DNA from: Escherichia phage vB_EcoM_SA91KD
Sequence record: NC_079183
DNA: 53,673 nt
Reading direction: 5' to 3' (one strand)
Part shown: piece after piece, positions 264-16,015 of the stretch
Position numbering within the stretch: the stretch's first letter is position 1
How the letters are laid out: each line of letters opens with the position of its first letter
Notes under the pieces: model-generated
Told to the model about the DNA's origin: nothing
The model's database searches: none
Seen by the model: the letters and a program-made list of their open reading frames with translations, nothing else
Made by a program: the position numbers and the translations under genes

Positions 264-294
264 TTTTTTTTTTTTATAATTTTTTTTTTATTTT
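264..294. repeat. T-rich homopolymer tracts (T12, ATAAT, T10)
   Basis: Read directly in the leader. Confidence 0.8.
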
Positions 295-748: not shown

Positions 749-2602
749 ATGCAGCCCCAGACTTGTGCTATTGCTGCCTTAGCCATCTTCAAGATGATGA
801 CGTCTTTCACTCGTGATGACGTTGTTCCTGCCATCGCGATGGTTGAACTGGCTTCTGCTTCTATTGCTGATGCCAACCGTTATAACAACGATTTGAAAGC
901 AATGCACTATGTTGACCCAGCTATCAACCTGATTGGTTTGGCTAAGCACTTTGGCTTCATCACCATGAACGAAGACAAGTCATTCCAACAAACTGATACA
1001 TGGGTTGAACTGGTTACAACCAAAGATACCGCAGTGCCATTCACTGAGCGTGTCACTACTGAATCTCGTCGCAAGCCTTTCGTTAAAGGTGGCAAAGTTA
1101 AGCCATCCAAAACTCTGAAAGCTGCAATCGAATTCCTGCAAGATACTGAGTACCATGTGGAGACTGAGATGGTTCGCATCATTCAGTCCATGCTTGAGCA
1201 ACGTACTTATGGTGGCTTGCAGATGCCAGAAGCTATCCAGACTGAACTCCATGTTTGGAACAATGCTGTAGCAATGATGAATCAGGACACACTGTATTCT
1301 GACTACTTTGCTGACAACCGTGGTCGCCTGTATCATGTAGCATGTGCTGGTCCTAACCCACAATCATCTGACTTTGCTCGTTGCTTGTATTCTCACAATG
1401 TTGAGAACATCGTTAAGAAGTTTAACGAAGATGGTTCTACTACCATTGCATACAATATGTTCATGGCAGAGCTGGAAGATATTTCCGGTGGTGAATGGTG
1501 CACTGCTAAGCGTTTGACTTATGTTGCTCAGAATCCTGCTGGTTCACTTGCTCGCATGATGAACATGCCTAAAGCTGAACGTCCTTCCAAGCCATTCACT
1601 TATGTTCGTCTGGCTCTGGATTGGTTCAAGTTTGAGACTACAGGTGAATGCGATTCTCGTGTAGGCTTTGGCTTAGATGCTAAATGCTCTGGTACTCAAT
1701 ATCTGGCATTCATTGCTGGTAATATGGAAATGGCTCGTGCTACAGGTCTGGTTGATTCTGAGACTAAAGCATCTGACCCATACCAGCTATCTCTTCGTGA
1801 ACTGTTGAAGTTATTAGACCGTTCTTCAATGAAACCATCTCCTGAAATCATGGATGAATTCTTGAATCCGAAAGCTGGTCGTAAGTTTATCAAAACTCCA
1901 TACATGGCTATCCAATATGGTGGTGGTAAAGCTGCATTAACTGGTTCTTCTGACTTCATTAGCTACATGACAGAAGCTCTCCAGATTCCTATGGAGAAAG
2001 CTGAGGCATTTGCTGAACTGTGTGTAGAAGCAATCCATAACGCATTGGGTGCTAAGATTAACATGTTCATCGAGAAAGCTGCTGATGCTGCATACAACCG
2101 TTGTGTTGAACTTGGTAAAGAGTACATCACATACCGTCACACTGATGGTCAGGTTGTAATGAAGCCTTGCTTCCCATCTCGTGAAATCTGTGAGGCATTC
2201 AGCATTCGTGTTGACTCTCAAACTCGTGTCATCTTTGGTCAGATTCAGGAGAACAAGCCTTGGACCATTCGTGAGTCCAACCCAACTAAAGAAGAGTTCA
2301 AGCGTACCTTCGTTGTTAACTACATTCAAGGTATTGACGCATTGGTTGCTCGTACTGTTGCAGTTAAAGCTAAAGAAGCTGGTCTTCGTGGCTTTACTTC
2401 AATCCATGATTGTTTCCGTTGCTGCTTAGCTGATGCTCCACGTATGATGGAAGTTATTCGTGCAGCATATGTTGAAATCTTTGTAACCAACAATCAATTC
2501 GAGAATCTGTCTAAGCAACTTGGTGGCATTCAGATGTATCATGAGAACATCGTAACCGAAGAGCTTCTGATGAGCGAACACGCTTACTACTTCTGTCAAT
2601 AA
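749..2602 (+). CDS. T7-family single-subunit RNA polymerase, compact form (617 aa)
   Basis: Motifs DNRGR (T7 DWRGR), GLDAKCSGTQ (motif A), RKFIKTPYMAIQYGG (motif B), SIHDCF (motif C). In-frame stop at 662-664 blocks any upstream extension. Confidence 0.85.
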   Translation: MQPQTCAIAALAIFKMMTSFTRDDVVPAIAMVELASASIADANRYNNDLKAMHYVDPAINLIGLAKHFGFITMNEDKSFQQTDTWVELVTTKDTAVPFTERVTTESRRKPFVKGGKVKPSKTLKAAIEFLQDTEYHVETEMVRIIQSMLEQRTYGGLQMPEAIQTELHVWNNAVAMMNQDTLYSDYFADNRGRLYHVACAGPNPQSSDFARCLYSHNVENIVKKFNEDGSTTIAYNMFMAELEDISGGEWCTAKRLTYVAQNPAGSLARMMNMPKAERPSKPFTYVRLALDWFKFETTGECDSRVGFGLDAKCSGTQYLAFIAGNMEMARATGLVDSETKASDPYQLSLRELLKLLDRSSMKPSPEIMDEFLNPKAGRKFIKTPYMAIQYGGGKAALTGSSDFISYMTEALQIPMEKAEAFAELCVEAIHNALGAKINMFIEKAADAAYNRCVELGKEYITYRHTDGQVVMKPCFPSREICEAFSIRVDSQTRVIFGQIQENKPWTIRESNPTKEEFKRTFVVNYIQGIDALVARTVAVKAKEAGLRGFTSIHDCFRCCLADAPRMMEVIRAAYVEIFVTNNQFENLSKQLGGIQMYHENIVTEELLMSEHAYYFCQ

Positions 2603-4092: not shown

Positions 4093-4130
4093 TATGGGGG
4101 GGGGAGTAACCCTCCAACTTCGGAGCTATA

Positions 4131-14528: not shown

Positions 14529-14557
14529 GTCGTTTGACGAATCAGAGCAGTTCTGAA

Positions 14558-14575
14558 ACATTAGTTGGATGTGGA
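14558..14575 (+). promoter_or_regulatory. Promoter-like box (tctgaaACATTAGTTGGATGTGgA)
   Basis: Near-exact consensus about 80 nt upstream of the 14652 gene. Confidence 0.45.
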
Positions 14576-14990: not shown

Positions 14991-15129
14991 GTTGCCGATG
15001 GCAAACTTGAGAGACTAAGCTAAATCGATCTGGCATGCACTGGAAGATTTCCGGTGCTGCCTTGAATCCCATTCCAGAGTGAGTGGGCTTCAATGAGCAT
15101 TCTTGTGATTAGAGTTGGGAGGTAGGCCG

Positions 15130-15336
15130 ATGCCCAAGCTCATGGCCCAGACAAGAGTGTTCATTGAAGTTACTTCAATATGGATTGTCGCCAAGTTGTG
15201 GAAGGACGTGCACACAGATTTAACGAAGAAAAGTAACAGCCTGAGAACTGTGAAAATTTCCCGTTATGTCGTGGGGAAGTGCACCATAACTTGGGTTCTT
15301 CACGTAGATATTACTCAAATATTTGCGGCTCGCTGA
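15130..15336 (+). CDS. Possible small protein (about 68 aa)
   Basis: Strong gggagg RBS 7 nt before ATG; odd composition, could be non-coding. Confidence 0.3.
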   Translation: MPKLMAQTRVFIEVTSIWIVAKLWKDVHTDLTKKSNSLRTVKISRYVVGKCTITWVLHVDITQIFAAR

Positions 15337-15878
15337 ATGTGAGCATCCATATTGAAGTAGTTTTCTGAGTCTTACGACGGGCCTAAACTGCCTGAAGTTA
15401 TTGCGACTGTTTTATTCATTTAAAATAAATGCAAATGATTCTGAAATGCGAGTTGCGGCTTAATTAAATTTAAGTCCTCTCCGTGGTCTTCCAATCCCAC
15501 GTAACCAAATTTGGCGCATTGTGGCTTCGAGATGTGATTAATAAATCGGAGCATTAATTAATTTGTATTCTGCGATGTAATGCAGACTTAAGTCCCTCAG
15601 TGCGCGTAGGGATGTGACAGAGTACAAACTTAATTCATTTAAAGTGAATTGCCCTGAGCATGGAAATAAACTGCTCAAACCGATGGTATCTACAAAGGTA
15701 GATTAAATCAGGTTGCCTGTTGGTACTTGGGTTCAACACCTGCTTGCACTCGCAAAGTAGTGCCTCGTACCTGAGATGAAGTGAGTCGGGACCATCAATC
15801 CCACGTTATGTCAAAACACAGTAGGCGACTCACGGATTCTACAAGCCTCGCAGTTCGGGAAAACCTGCGTTATCAAAA

Positions 15879-15888
15879 CCCCCCCCCC
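15879..15888. repeat. C10 homopolymer tract
   Basis: Read directly, 8 nt upstream of the tRNA-like element. Confidence 0.85.
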
Positions 15889-15895
15889 ATTATTT

Positions 15896-15982
15896 GGACG
15901 AGTAGCTCAGAAGGTCTGCTCCAGAGCTGGTAGAGCAATCTGTTCGACAGATGTGTCGTTGGTTCGAATCCAACCTCGTCCA
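15896..15982 (+). tRNA. tRNA-like element with atypical internal structure (possible pseudo-tRNA or non-canonical tRNA)
   Basis: Canonical 7-bp acceptor stem (GGACGAG / CTCGTCC) and T-arm (GTTGG-TTCGAAT-CCAAC) with discriminator A; the 55 nt between them cannot be folded by eye into standard D and anticodon arms. Anticodon not assignable. Confidence 0.35.
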
Positions 15983-16015
15983 CCCACTTTAATAATTCGC
16001 AATACTGGAGTCCTT

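What the first reader, a model, noticed from the sequence alone, without database searches (positions are those of the whole stretch)
15879..15985. C10 tract followed by a tRNA-like element with canonical acceptor and T-arm but non-canonical core
GGACGAG (15896-15902) pairs with CTCGTCC (15975-15981), followed by discriminator A; the T-arm GTTGG-TTCGAAT-CCAAC is textbook. The intervening 55 nt do not fold by eye into standard D and anticodon arms (an extra hairpin agctc...gagct and a 5-nt-loop hairpin atctg-ttcga-cagat). It may be a tRNA with an insertion, a pseudo-tRNA, or a tRNA-like processing signal. The adjacent C10 homopolymer is a slippage-prone tract.
Basis: seen in the sequence. Interest (0 to 1): 0.5.

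Follow-up and report, generated by a model that had tools for sequence, protein, structure and literature searches.

The report
Phage tRNA gene with expanded D-loop
This is a real transfer-RNA gene of a phiEcoM-GJ1-like coliphage that carries an odd 16-base insertion in one loop; related phages already annotate it as tRNA-Arg, but they also show that its anticodon differs between strains, so its job is not settled.

Summary
Window 15896-15982 is a tRNA gene: Rfam tRNA scores 45.6 bits against a threshold of 29, and ARAGORN also reports a gene. The window is a Carltongylesvirus (phiEcoM-GJ1-like, Chaseviridae). GJ1 and ST32 already list the homologous gene as a 95-nt tRNA-Arg ("may contain an intron").

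The "non-canonical core" resolves into three parts:
- a normal D-stem, GCTC/GAGC
- a 24-nt D-loop holding a 16-nt insertion with its own mini-hairpin
- a normal anticodon arm whose 7-nt loop (G-U-UCG-A-C) can close to 5 nt through G32:C38

With the insertion removed in silico, ARAGORN calls a textbook tRNA-Arg(UCG).

Across 28 related phages the tRNA body is almost invariant, while the leader, trailer and neighbouring DNA vary heavily, which indicates purifying selection. Two patches vary. The insertion has three forms, and the window has a unique 6-nt deletion. The anticodon loop reads UCG in 22 phages, AAG in 3, UAG in 2 and CGA in 1. Some relatives lack the gene or carry a hairpin in its place.

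My best reading is a functional but dispensable phage tRNA with an expanded D-loop. A non-decoding tRNA-shaped RNA remains a serious rival, because the main E. coli ArgRS determinant A20 is absent. Interest is moderate.

The parts
15847..15878 (+). Conserved 32-nt block upstream of the leader (CTCGCAGTTCGGGAAAACCTGCGTTATCAAAA). This is context only, and its function is unknown.
   Evidence: 2 of 32 columns vary in 27 phages. The block is retained in alleles that lack the tRNA. It is unique in the window and has no stable fold.
15879..15895 (+). 5' leader: the C10 tract (15879-15888) plus ATTATTT. U is at position -1, before the predicted RNase P site.
   Evidence: Sequence. The leader is hypervariable in length and sequence among relatives, from CCCACC to runs of 5-10 C, with 65% variable columns.
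15896..15902 (+). Acceptor stem, 5' strand (GGACGAG, positions 1-7).
   Evidence: Pairs 7 of 7 with 15975-15981. It is invariant in 28 phages. The only change on the partner strand keeps the pair as G-U.
15903..15908 (+). U8, A9 and the D-stem 5' strand GCTC (positions 10-13).
   Evidence: Rfam alignment. Invariant among relatives.
15909..15915 (+). Proximal D-loop AGAAGGT (A14, G15, G18, G19, U20).
   Evidence: Rfam alignment. Invariant in all 28 copies. U, not A, follows GG, so A20 is absent.
15916..15931 (+). 16-nt insertion in the D-loop (CTGCTCCAGAGCTGGT). UCUG (15915-18) / CUC / CAGA (15922-25) can form a mini-hairpin. GGT (15929-31) is the remnant of a second copy of the D-loop.
   Evidence: Rfam shows an 18-nt insert at this point. 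The MFE fold shows the hairpin. Relatives carry 21-22 nt here in two sequence types, and the window uniquely lacks TAGTCA.
15932..15937 (+). A21, the D-stem 3' strand GAGC (positions 22-25) and A26.
   Evidence: Invariant among relatives.
15938..15952 (+). Anticodon arm: stem ATCTG/CAGAT with loop TTCGA. Read as a 7-nt loop it is G32 U33 U34 C35 G36 A37 C38, giving anticodon UCG (15944-15946).
   Evidence: ARAGORN calls Arg(tcg) once the insert is removed. The stem is invariant, while the loop has four variants among relatives.
15953..15957 (+). 5-nt variable loop GTGTC (G46, C48).
   Evidence: Invariant among relatives.
15958..15974 (+). T-arm: GTTGG / TTCGAAT / CCAAC.
   Evidence: Only loop position 60 varies, T or C.
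15975..15982 (+). Acceptor stem 3' strand CTCGTCC plus discriminator A73.
   Evidence: The discriminator is A or G among relatives.
15983..15986 (+). 3' trailer start, CCCA. C74 and C75 are encoded and A76 is not; some relatives encode CCA.

Best explanation
Window 15896-15982 is the Carltongylesvirus tRNA gene that GJ1 and ST32 annotate as tRNA-Arg. It is a genuine class-I tRNA that selection maintains.

**What the sequence shows**
- The acceptor stem, D-stem, anticodon stem, 5-nt variable loop and T-arm are canonical.
- So are the tertiary-contact bases: U8, A14, G15:C48, G18 G19, A21, G46, G53, T54 T55 C56, A58 and C61.
- The D-loop is expanded from 8 to 24 nt by a 16-nt insertion just after G18 G19 U20. 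In relatives the loop is 29-30 nt.
- The insertion looks like an imperfect tandem duplication of the 5' half of the D-arm (GCTCAG-AAGGT, spacer, GCT[C/T]AG-TCAGGT).
- In this window part of the second copy is deleted. The cloverleaf, with a small UCUG-CUC-CAGA hairpin protruding from the D-loop, is then the minimum-energy fold.
- The anticodon loop is G32-U33-UCG-A37-C38, and G32:C38 can close it to 5 nt.

**What I infer about how it works**
- The gene is transcribed within the early/middle unit that starts at the phage-RNAP promoter at 14556.
- RNase P cuts 5' of G15896.
- The 3' end is trimmed to ACC, and the host CCA-adding enzyme supplies A76.
- The 87-nt product most likely acts in translation, reading CGA and possibly other CGN codons. 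E. coli has no UCG tRNA and reads CGA only by inosine wobble (my own knowledge).
- The gene is dispensable.

That it is a real tRNA gene with an insertion under purifying selection I consider about 85% likely. That it is aminoacylated and decodes I consider only about 45-50% likely.
For: **Detection**
- Rfam tRNA scores 45.6 bits over the full model 1-71, with a single insert in the D-loop.
- ARAGORN reports a gene.
- The cloverleaf is the MFE fold at -33.3 kcal/mol, z = -2.95.

**Canonical underlying tRNA**
- With the insert removed, default ARAGORN calls a canonical tRNA-Arg(tcg) with the anticodon at position 34.

**Prior annotation**
- GJ1 annotates the homologous gene as tRNA-Arg, and the ST32 paper reports it in ST32 (PMC6266442). 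YSF and Pel53 annotate a 71-nt tRNA-Arg that starts inside the insert.

**Purifying selection**
- Across 28 phages, 3 of about 67 body columns vary. These are a G5:C68 to G5:U68 change that keeps the pair, T-loop position 60, and the discriminator.
- By comparison, 65% of leader columns, 36% of trailer columns, 49% of upstream non-coding columns and 21% of downstream ORF columns vary.

**Anticodon loop looks constrained, not drifting**
- TTCGA is kept in 22 of 28 phages, across divergent leaders, trailers and both insert types.
- No one-step variants are seen.
- U33 and a purine at position 37 are kept in every variant.

**Codon usage**
- CGA makes up 15.9% of Arg codons in the window (7.6 per 1000).
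- It rises from 11% in early genes to 17-18% in middle and late genes.
- It is absent from the first-expressed RNA polymerase gene, 0 of 31 Arg codons.

**Arg identity**
- C35, G36 and A/G73 fit the bacterial Arg identity set (PMC9976931).
Against: - **A20 is missing.** A20 is the strongest E. coli ArgRS determinant, and U follows G19 in both D-loop copies.
- **The D-loop is very long.** At 24-30 nt it defeats the gene finders. ARAGORN misses or mislabels relatives, and the annotated tRNAscan-SE call in YSF starts inside the insert.
- **A D-loop insertion was unstable in E. coli.** An engineered insertion (Spinach aptamer) in tRNA-Tyr gave no detectable RNA (PMC5397188).
- **G32:C38 may close the anticodon loop** to 5 nt.
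- **The anticodon is not fixed.** Relatives carry AAG, UAG and CGA alleles on the same body. The AAG alleles have G73, which does not fit Leu identity.
- **Codon usage does not track the allele.** It is the same in phages with each anticodon allele and in phages with no tRNA.
- **The gene is dispensable.** It is absent from PYps3T, PYps4T and PYps16T, and replaced by a hairpin in BSBP01 and vB_Shi_2KOFFS.
- **There are no expression or charging data.**
Confidence: 0.5

Rival explanations
1. It is a tRNA-shaped RNA that does not decode. The L-shaped body is what matters, and there are two versions of this idea. In the first, it acts as an RNase P / 3'-processing punctuation mark that separates the variable upstream region from the spanin genes. 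In the second, it acts as a decoy or resistant stand-in that engages host enzymes which bind tRNA anticodon arms, such as anticodon nucleases of defence systems. Either way the anticodon loop is free, or is selected, to change.
For: - The body is conserved while the anticodon triplet differs among alleles (UCG, AAG, UAG, CGA).
- A20 is missing for ArgRS, and G73 accompanies the 'Leu' AAG alleles.
- G32:C38 can shut the loop.
- The D-loop insertion is tolerated in three forms.
- At the same locus two phages carry a stable hairpin followed by a U run instead, at -23.7 kcal/mol, z = -3.8.
- Codon usage is independent of the allele.
- Phage tRNAs that counter tRNA-cleaving defences are documented (PMC10264068, PMC11464382, PMC11555353).
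Against: - A pure processing signal needs only the acceptor/T domain and the elbow. Here the anticodon stem, A26 and the variable loop are also invariant (0 of 16 columns vary, against roughly 40-60% in neutral flanks).
- The loop is not drifting freely: TTCGA persists in 22 of 28 phages and no one-step variants occur.
- No defence nuclease specific for these anticodons is tied to these phages.
- The decoy idea is untested.
Confidence: 0.3
2. It is a decaying relic. A once-normal tRNA gene was damaged by a partial duplication in the D-arm, is now drifting, and is being lost in some lineages.
For: - The gene is absent or replaced in at least five sequenced relatives.
- It carries an insertion and, in this window, a further 6-nt deletion.
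- The anticodon differs among strains.
- Many genome papers and annotations do not find it at all.
Against: - The 67-nt body immediately next to hypervariable leader and trailer sequence has only three variable columns. None of them breaks a pair or a conserved tertiary base.
- Both insert types keep every canonical position.
- Loss-of-function changes would be expected anywhere in the gene, not only in the anticodon triplet.
Confidence: 0.1
3. It is a class-II tRNA (Ser or Leu), as ARAGORN labels it. On this reading ATCTG-TTCGA-CAGAT is the long variable arm and the anticodon lies inside the 'insertion'.
For: - ARAGORN calls tRNA-Ser(gct) here and tRNA-Leu(cag) in GJ1 and DE15.
- A variable-arm loop would be free to vary, which would explain the loop polymorphism.
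- Insertions in the variable region are well tolerated in E. coli.
Against: - The reading changes from phage to phage: Ser GCT, Leu CAG, an undefined 4-base 'anticodon', or no call at all.
- Its D-stems have only 2-3 pairs.
- The window's 6-nt deletion removes the supposed Leu anticodon loop.
- GTGTC plus G46 and C48 is a standard 5-nt variable loop, and Rfam aligns the hairpin as the anticodon arm.
Confidence: 0.03
4. The extra bases are an intron that is spliced out, as the GJ1 record's note 'may contain an intron' suggests.
For: - The GJ1 annotation carries that note.
- Removing the insert restores a perfect tRNA.
Against: - Bacterial and phage tRNA introns are self-splicing group I introns of a few hundred nt in the anticodon loop (my own knowledge). 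This insert is 16-22 nt and sits in the D-loop.
- No Rfam intron or ribozyme hit was found.
- No RNA ligase, kinase-phosphatase or splicing endonuclease is annotated in the well-annotated relative Mangalitsa.
- The ST32 authors state 'without an intron'.
Confidence: 0.03

Closest known systems
tRNA-Arg gene of Escherichia phage phiEcoM-GJ1 (phiEcoMGJ1_gt01, 95 nt, 'may contain an intron') and of phage ST32
   Same: It is the same gene at the same locus, between the conserved GGGAAAACCTGCGTTA block and the small ORF and spanin genes. The acceptor stem, D copy 1, anticodon arm, variable loop and T-arm are identical.
   Different: GJ1 and ST32 carry the type-B insert (TTGCATTGTGCTCAGTCA) and G73, and GJ1 also has G5:U68. 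The window has the type-A insert with a unique 6-nt deletion (87 nt instead of 92-93), A73, a C10 leader, and a CCC rather than CCA trailer.
Canonical bacterial and phage class-I tRNAs (Rfam RF00005), such as the tRNA genes of T4 and T5
   Same: All four stems, the 5-nt variable loop, the T-loop and the tertiary-contact nucleotides match. C74 and C75 are encoded but not A76, as in phage T4 tRNAs that need host CCA repair (my own knowledge).
   Different: The D-loop is 24 nt (29-30 in relatives) instead of about 7-11. G32:C38 form a Watson-Crick pair at the ends of the anticodon loop. The anticodon is polymorphic among near-identical genes.
Phage tRNAs proposed or shown to evade tRNA-targeting defences (anticodon-loop variants; the T5 tRNA-Lys against PARIS and tRNA-Tyr against retron effectors)
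   Same: It is a single phage-borne tRNA with an atypical anticodon loop, carried by a virulent coliphage, dispensable and patchily distributed.
   Different: No link to any defence system is shown here. Those tRNAs keep a normal D-loop and a fixed anticodon.
tRNA-like 3'-end processing elements (the mascRNA of MALAT1; the mitochondrial tRNA punctuation model)
   Same: The acceptor and T domains are tRNA-like while the anticodon loop is small or unconstrained. The element sits between two transcript segments.
   Different: This comparison rests on my own knowledge. Here the whole body, including the anticodon stem and variable loop, is conserved. No processing data exist, and the system is bacterial.

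Membership tests
tRNA (Rfam RF00005, class I) | Covariance-model score above the curated gathering score over the full model | tested here: met
   45.6 bits against 29, model positions 1-71 of 71, E = 1.3e-6 for the window. GJ1, TH26 and PYps16N score 41.5-41.8 bits.
tRNA (Rfam RF00005, class I) | 7-bp acceptor stem, 5-bp T-stem with a TTCRANY loop, 4-bp D-stem, 5-bp anticodon stem, and conserved U8, A14, G18 G19, A21, G53, T54 T55 C56, A58, C61 | tested here: met
   All are present in the sequence and the Rfam alignment. 98.3% of pair cells form standard pairs in 13 distinct sequences. There are no double-sided changes, so there is no covariation evidence either way.
tRNA (Rfam RF00005, class I) | D-loop of normal size (about 7-11 nt) | tested here: not met
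   The D-loop spans 15909-15932, 24 nt, and is 29-30 nt in relatives. Rfam needs an 18-24-nt insert state. ARAGORN fails on type-A relatives.
tRNA (Rfam RF00005, class I) | 7-nt anticodon loop with U33 and a purine at position 37, and positions 32 and 38 not Watson-Crick paired | tested here: inconclusive
   U33 and R37 are present in all four loop variants. However, G32 and C38 are complementary, and folding closes the loop to 5 nt, or to 3 nt with a further U-A pair.
tRNA (Rfam RF00005, class I) | A stable processed RNA that is aminoacylated | not testable with these tools
   No expression or charging data were found. A literature search for Carltongylesvirus transcriptomics returned no relevant study.
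E. coli-type tRNA-Arg identity | C35 and G/U36 in the anticodon, and A/G73 | tested here: met
   The anticodon is UCG (15944-46) and the discriminator is A15982. The identity set comes from PMC9976931.
E. coli-type tRNA-Arg identity | A20 in the D-loop, the main determinant for E. coli ArgRS | tested here: not met
   U follows G18 G19, at 15915 in the first copy and 15931 in the GGT remnant. This holds in all relatives. Whether an A of the insert can substitute is unknown.
Class-II tRNA (Leu/Ser) as labelled by ARAGORN | A long variable arm together with a consistent D-arm and anticodon arm across homologues | tested here: not met
   The labels differ between homologues, the D-stems have 2-3 pairs, and the window deletes the supposed anticodon loop.
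Intron-containing bacterial or phage tRNA | A self-splicing group I intron in the anticodon loop, or a splicing machinery | tested here: not met
   The insert is 16-22 nt and lies in the D-loop. No intron or ribozyme family was hit. No RNA ligase or splicing enzyme is annotated in Mangalitsa.
tRNA pseudogene | Relaxed constraint across the whole gene | tested here: not met
   The body has 3 of about 67 variable columns, against 36-65% in the adjacent leader and trailer.
tRNA-like RNA-processing signal | RNase P / RNase Z cleavage that matures the flanking transcripts, with no need for decoding | not testable with these tools
   Two points are compatible with it: the variable anticodon, and the hairpin allele at the same locus. 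This is not evidence of cleavage.

The most novel reading that the evidence does not exclude
The conserved body may be a reusable tRNA chassis. It carries a closed G32:C38 anticodon loop and an extra hairpin projecting from the D-loop near where class-II tRNAs carry their long arm. On this chassis, phage lineages swap the anticodon (UCG, UAG, AAG, CGA) by mutation, loop inversion and recombination. That would suggest one of two things. Charging might not depend on the anticodon. Alternatively, the RNA might work as an anticodon-specific, nuclease-resistant substitute or decoy against different host tRNA-targeting defences.
Probability: 0.12. Interest if true: 0.75.

Novelty: new variant of a known kind. 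Interest (0 to 1): 0.42.

Why it matters
Single tRNA genes in small virulent phages are usually dismissed as codon helpers, and this one is annotated inconsistently: as Arg, as Leu, as 'intron?', or not at all.

If the 87-93-nt RNA is made and charged, it would show that a bacterial translation system accepts a tRNA with a D-loop three times the normal length. That matters for tRNA engineering and for tRNA gene finders.

The strain-to-strain anticodon differences on an otherwise frozen body provide a natural experiment. They can be used to ask whether phage tRNAs serve codon supply or counter-defence, using phages that are easy to grow on E. coli.

If the RNA is not charged, it would be a bacterial example of a tRNA-shaped RNA kept for another purpose.

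Tried and rejected
1. **Class-II (Ser/Leu) reading from ARAGORN.** Rejected. The calls are inconsistent among near-identical homologues, and the window's deletion removes the supposed anticodon.
2. **Intron reading.** Rejected on size, position and the lack of any splicing machinery.
Its 3' partner is missing in type-B relatives, and the distal GAGC is the invariant one.
4. **Covariation test of the cloverleaf and of the insert hairpin.** There are no double-sided changes because the sequences are too similar, so the test is uninformative. Single-sided changes are all G-C to G-U.
5. **Homologues outside the genus, to find an insertion-free ancestor.**
   - The insert-free 72-mer finds only generic tRNA similarity of 80% or less in phages and E. 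coli.
   - Exact-pattern scans found only Carltongylesvirus contigs in the viral and metagenome collections, and nothing in 185,579 bacterial genomes.
   - One pattern of mine was mis-specified and found nothing.
6. **A target complementary to the insert elsewhere in the window.** None beyond chance.
7. **Codon-anticodon co-adaptation across six genomes with different alleles.** No difference.
8. **Sigma-70 promoter or intrinsic terminator next to the gene.** None. The conserved upstream block is unique and unstructured.
9. **Pairing between loop variants and leader sequences.** Checked by eye; not consistent.
10. **The second tRNA-like gene in TH23.** Seen only by relaxed ARAGORN, with no Rfam hit.
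Full report
**Observation**

The sequence is as described:
- C10 lies at 15879-15888.
- GGACGAG (15896-15902) is perfectly complementary to CTCGTCC (15975-15981), followed by A15982.
- GTTGG / TTCGAAT / CCAAC lies at 15958-15974.
- The hairpin ATCTG-TTCGA-CAGAT lies at 15938-15952.

The only Rfam family that reaches its gathering score anywhere in the 53.7-kb window is tRNA. It matches 15896-15982 at 45.6 bits against a threshold of 29, E = 1.3e-6, over model positions 1-71. ARAGORN finds one gene, at 15895-15986. The minimum-free-energy fold of the stretch is a cloverleaf, at -33.3 kcal/mol with z = -2.95.

**Anatomy**

The Rfam alignment assigns every arm:

| Element | Sequence | Coordinates |
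|---|---|---|
| Acceptor 5' strand | GGACGAG | 15896-15902 |
| U8, A9 | TA | 15903-15904 |
| D-stem | GCTC with GAGC | 15905-08 with 15933-36 |
| A26 | A | 15937 |
| Anticodon stem | ATCTG / CAGAT | 15938-42 / 15948-52 |
| Variable loop | GTGTC | 15953-57 |
| T-arm | GTTGG / TTCGAAT / CCAAC | 15958-74 |
| Acceptor 3' strand, discriminator | CTCGTCC, A | 15975-81, 15982 |

Two things are abnormal.
- The D-loop is 24 nt (15909-15932). After A14 G15 A A G18 G19 U20 comes an insertion of about 16 nt, CTGCTCCAGAGCTGGT. In it, UCUG-CUC-CAGA can form a small hairpin.
- The anticodon loop read as 7 nt is G32-U33-U34-C35-G36-A37-C38.

When the insertion is deleted in silico, default ARAGORN reports a canonical tRNA-Arg(tcg) with the anticodon at position 34. 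The trailer reads CCCA, so C74 and C75 are encoded but A76 is not.

**Identity of the genome and prior knowledge**

The region is 85-97% identical to phiEcoM-GJ1-like myoviruses, genus Carltongylesvirus, family Chaseviridae. The gene has been handled inconsistently:
- The GJ1 record annotates the homologous 95-nt feature as tRNA-Arg, 'may contain an intron'.
- The ST32 paper reports a 95-bp tRNA-Arg 'without an intron' (PMC6266442).
- Ecp_YSF and Pel53 carry a 71-nt tRNA-Arg that starts inside the insertion and has a mismatched acceptor stem; the YSF record credits it to tRNAscan-SE.
- The Mangalitsa authors found no tRNA with ARAGORN (PMC6753284).
- Many other records annotate nothing at this position.
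- The Yersinia-phage paper speaks of 'arginine or leucine'. It notes that PYps3T, PYps4T and PYps16T 'lack exactly the tRNA gene' (PMC8762354).

The gene is therefore known, but its structure has never been resolved in the papers I could read.

**Comparison of 28 copies**

I compared 25 GenBank phages, one IMG/VR contig, two metagenome contigs and the window. There are 13 distinct sequences.

The body is nearly frozen. Only three columns of about 67 vary:
- position 68, C or T, which keeps G5 paired as G-U
- T-loop position 60
- the discriminator, A or G

The surroundings vary far more:

| Region | Variable columns |
|---|---|
| 17-nt leader | 65% |
| Trailer | 36% |
| Upstream non-coding DNA | 49% |
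| Downstream ORF | 21% |

The hypervariable leader and trailer touch the gene directly. The low diversity of the body is therefore best explained by purifying selection on the RNA, not by recent spread of a cassette.

No pair shows a double-sided change, so covariation neither supports nor opposes the fold.

**Two patches escape the constraint**

The first is the insertion.
- Type A is CTGCTCCAGAGCTTAGTCA (20 phages, plus TH24, whose single C-to-T change keeps a G-U pair in the mini-hairpin).
- Type B is TTGCATTGTGCTCAGTCA (6 phages).
- The window is a type A that uniquely lacks TAGTCA.

In both full-length types the D-arm 5' half and D-loop appear twice (GCTCAG-AAGGT, a 9-10-nt spacer, GCT[C/T]AG-TCAGGT). 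The insertion therefore looks like an imperfect tandem duplication, and two GCTC/GCTT copies compete for the single GAGC.

Constrained folding places the cloverleaf that uses the first copy within 1.0 kcal/mol (type A) and 1.8 kcal/mol (type B) of the MFE. Only in the window, where the second copy is crippled, is the cloverleaf itself the MFE.

The second patch is the anticodon loop:

| Loop | Phages | Anticodon |
|---|---|---|
| TTCGA | 22 | UCG |
| TAAGA | TH26, FXie-2024a, PYps16N | AAG |
| TTAGG | Bp7, JL1 | UAG |
| TCGAA | TH29 | CGA |

- TCGAA is the exact reverse complement of TTCGA, so a single inversion of the hairpin would produce it.
- U33 and a purine at position 37 are kept in every variant.
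- No one-step variants of TTCGA occur, and TTCGA persists across both insert types and many different leaders. The loop is therefore not simply drifting.
- Alleles are shuffled by recombination. PYps16N is 99.7% identical to PYps23T upstream, yet it carries the TH26 tRNA allele.

**Locus polymorphism**

The tRNA sits between a 32-nt block that is almost invariant (15847-15878) and the ribosome-binding site of a 46-codon ORF, which is followed by an Rz-like spanin gene. Three alleles exist at this spot:
- the tRNA
- nothing (PYps3T, PYps4T, PYps16T)
- a 52-nt imperfect hairpin followed by UAUUUU, in BSBP01 and vB_Shi_2KOFFS, at -23.7 kcal/mol with z = -3.8

All three diverge immediately after the C tract. 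The tract ranges from an interrupted CCCACC to uninterrupted runs of 5-10 C.

The gene is thus dispensable, and the junction is a recombination hot spot. The C10 run is statistically unusual, with about 0.02 expected. It lies in the leader, and I can assign it no function beyond being a slippage-prone and recombination-prone spacer.

**Function: evidence for decoding**

- The whole tRNA body is conserved, including the anticodon stem, the variable loop and the tertiary-contact bases.
- C35, G36 and A/G73 fit the bacterial arginine identity set (PMC9976931).
- CGA makes up 15.9% of arginine codons in the window. From my own knowledge this is about twice the E. coli average. E. coli has no UCG tRNA and reads CGA by inosine wobble (also my own knowledge).
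- CGA rises from 11% of Arg codons in early genes to 17-18% in middle and late genes. It is absent from the first-expressed RNA polymerase gene, 0 of 31 Arg codons.

**Function: evidence against decoding**

- A20, the main determinant for E. coli ArgRS, is replaced by U in both D-loop copies.
- The D-loop is three times the normal length. An engineered D-loop insertion in E. coli tRNA-Tyr gave no detectable RNA, whereas variable-loop insertions were tolerated (PMC5397188).
- G32:C38 may shut the loop.
- The 'Leu' AAG alleles carry G73, which does not fit leucine identity.
- Codon usage is indistinguishable among phages with UCG, UAG or AAG alleles, a hairpin, or no tRNA.

**Verdict on mechanism**

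I commit to a genuine tRNA gene with an expanded D-loop.

Shown:
- the covariance-model match
- the canonical positions
- the constraint on the body

Inferred:
- transcription from the phage-RNAP promoter motif at 14556-14575
- 5' cleavage by RNase P at G15896
- 3' trimming and addition of A76 by the host enzyme
- use in translation at CGA and other CGN codons

I give about 85% to 'real tRNA gene with an insertion, selectively maintained', and about 45-50% to 'aminoacylated and decoding'.

The main rival (about 30%) is a tRNA-shaped RNA kept for a non-decoding role, either processing punctuation or a decoy or substitute against tRNA-targeting defences, a field with recent precedents. A decaying relic (about 10%) fits the losses but not the conservation. 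The class-II reading and the intron reading are rejected.

**Comparison with known families**

It works like, and is a member of, class-I tRNAs by the covariance model and by every stem and tertiary position. It fails two ordinary features:
- D-loop size, which is not met
- an open 32/38 position, which is inconclusive

It also fails one Arg-identity feature, A20.

The gene is the orthologue of the GJ1 and ST32 'tRNA-Arg'. No insertion-free relative exists in the phage, plasmid-free E. coli, IMG/VR, metagenome or GTDB collections searched.

**Novelty and score**

The gene itself is already annotated in relatives. Three things appear to be undescribed in the papers held here:
- the resolved anatomy (a duplication-type D-loop insertion in three forms)
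- the evidence of selection on the body
- the anticodon polymorphism, together with the three-allele locus

I rate it a new variant of a known kind, with interest 0.42. It is a tidy, testable curiosity and not a new system.

The most novel reading not excluded is a reusable tRNA chassis with swappable anticodons, used for anticodon-independent charging or for counter-defence. I give it about 12%.

Noticed in passing
window 14993-15895: About 900 nt upstream of the tRNA has no convincing gene. Four ORFs of 41-73 aa there have no PHROG match. The stretch contains short internal direct repeats, for example CAATCCCACGT at 15492 and 15796. It is indel-rich and mosaic among relatives, some of which carry an HNH endonuclease or an imm-like gene here.
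   Followed up: partly
window 15847-15878: The 32-nt block CTCGCAGTTCGGGAAAACCTGCGTTATCAAAA is almost invariant in 27 phages. It is kept even where the tRNA is absent, is unique in the window, and is not structured. It may be a sequence-level signal such as a promoter or a protein site, but it remains unexplained.
   Followed up: partly
L028 about 650-720 (BSBP01); L031 7-64 (vB_Shi_2KOFFS): In these two phages a 52-nt imperfect hairpin followed by UAUUUU occupies exactly the tRNA slot, at -23.7 kcal/mol with z = -3.8. The simple terminator scan did not call it.
   Followed up: partly
L026 about 553-622 (Escherichia virus TH23; TH28 and TH33 break off from the window at the same point): A second tRNA-like gene lies directly 3' of the first. 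It has acceptor TGCCAAT/ATTGGCA and a 6-nt anticodon loop. Only relaxed ARAGORN found it, and there is no Rfam hit.
   Followed up: partly
L025 (Escherichia virus TH29), anticodon loop: The loop TCGAA is the exact reverse complement of the common TTCGA between the inverted repeats ATCTG and CAGAT. A single hairpin inversion would turn anticodon UCG into CGA.
   Followed up: no
window 749-2602: The phage RNA polymerase gene uses no CGA among its 31 arginine codons, while middle and late genes use CGA for 17-18% of arginine.
   Followed up: partly
window 14556-14575, and also 2717, 7974 and 12253: AAACATTAGTTGGATGTGGA matches GJ1 'putative phage promoter 7' exactly, and three near-copies occur elsewhere (0.04 expected by chance). 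The copy at 14556 is the nearest upstream promoter candidate for the tRNA.
   Followed up: partly
window 264-289 and 4096-4104: Other long homopolymers are present: T12 and T10 five bases apart, and G9.
   Followed up: no
L027 (PYps3T) compared with L003 (Pel53) junctions: In many relatives the tRNA cassette is flanked by a short direct repeat: CCCACC in the leader and CCACCC at the tRNA 3' end. The tRNA-less allele reads CCCACATCCTTAAC. This suggests gain or loss by illegitimate recombination at the C-rich junction.
   Followed up: no
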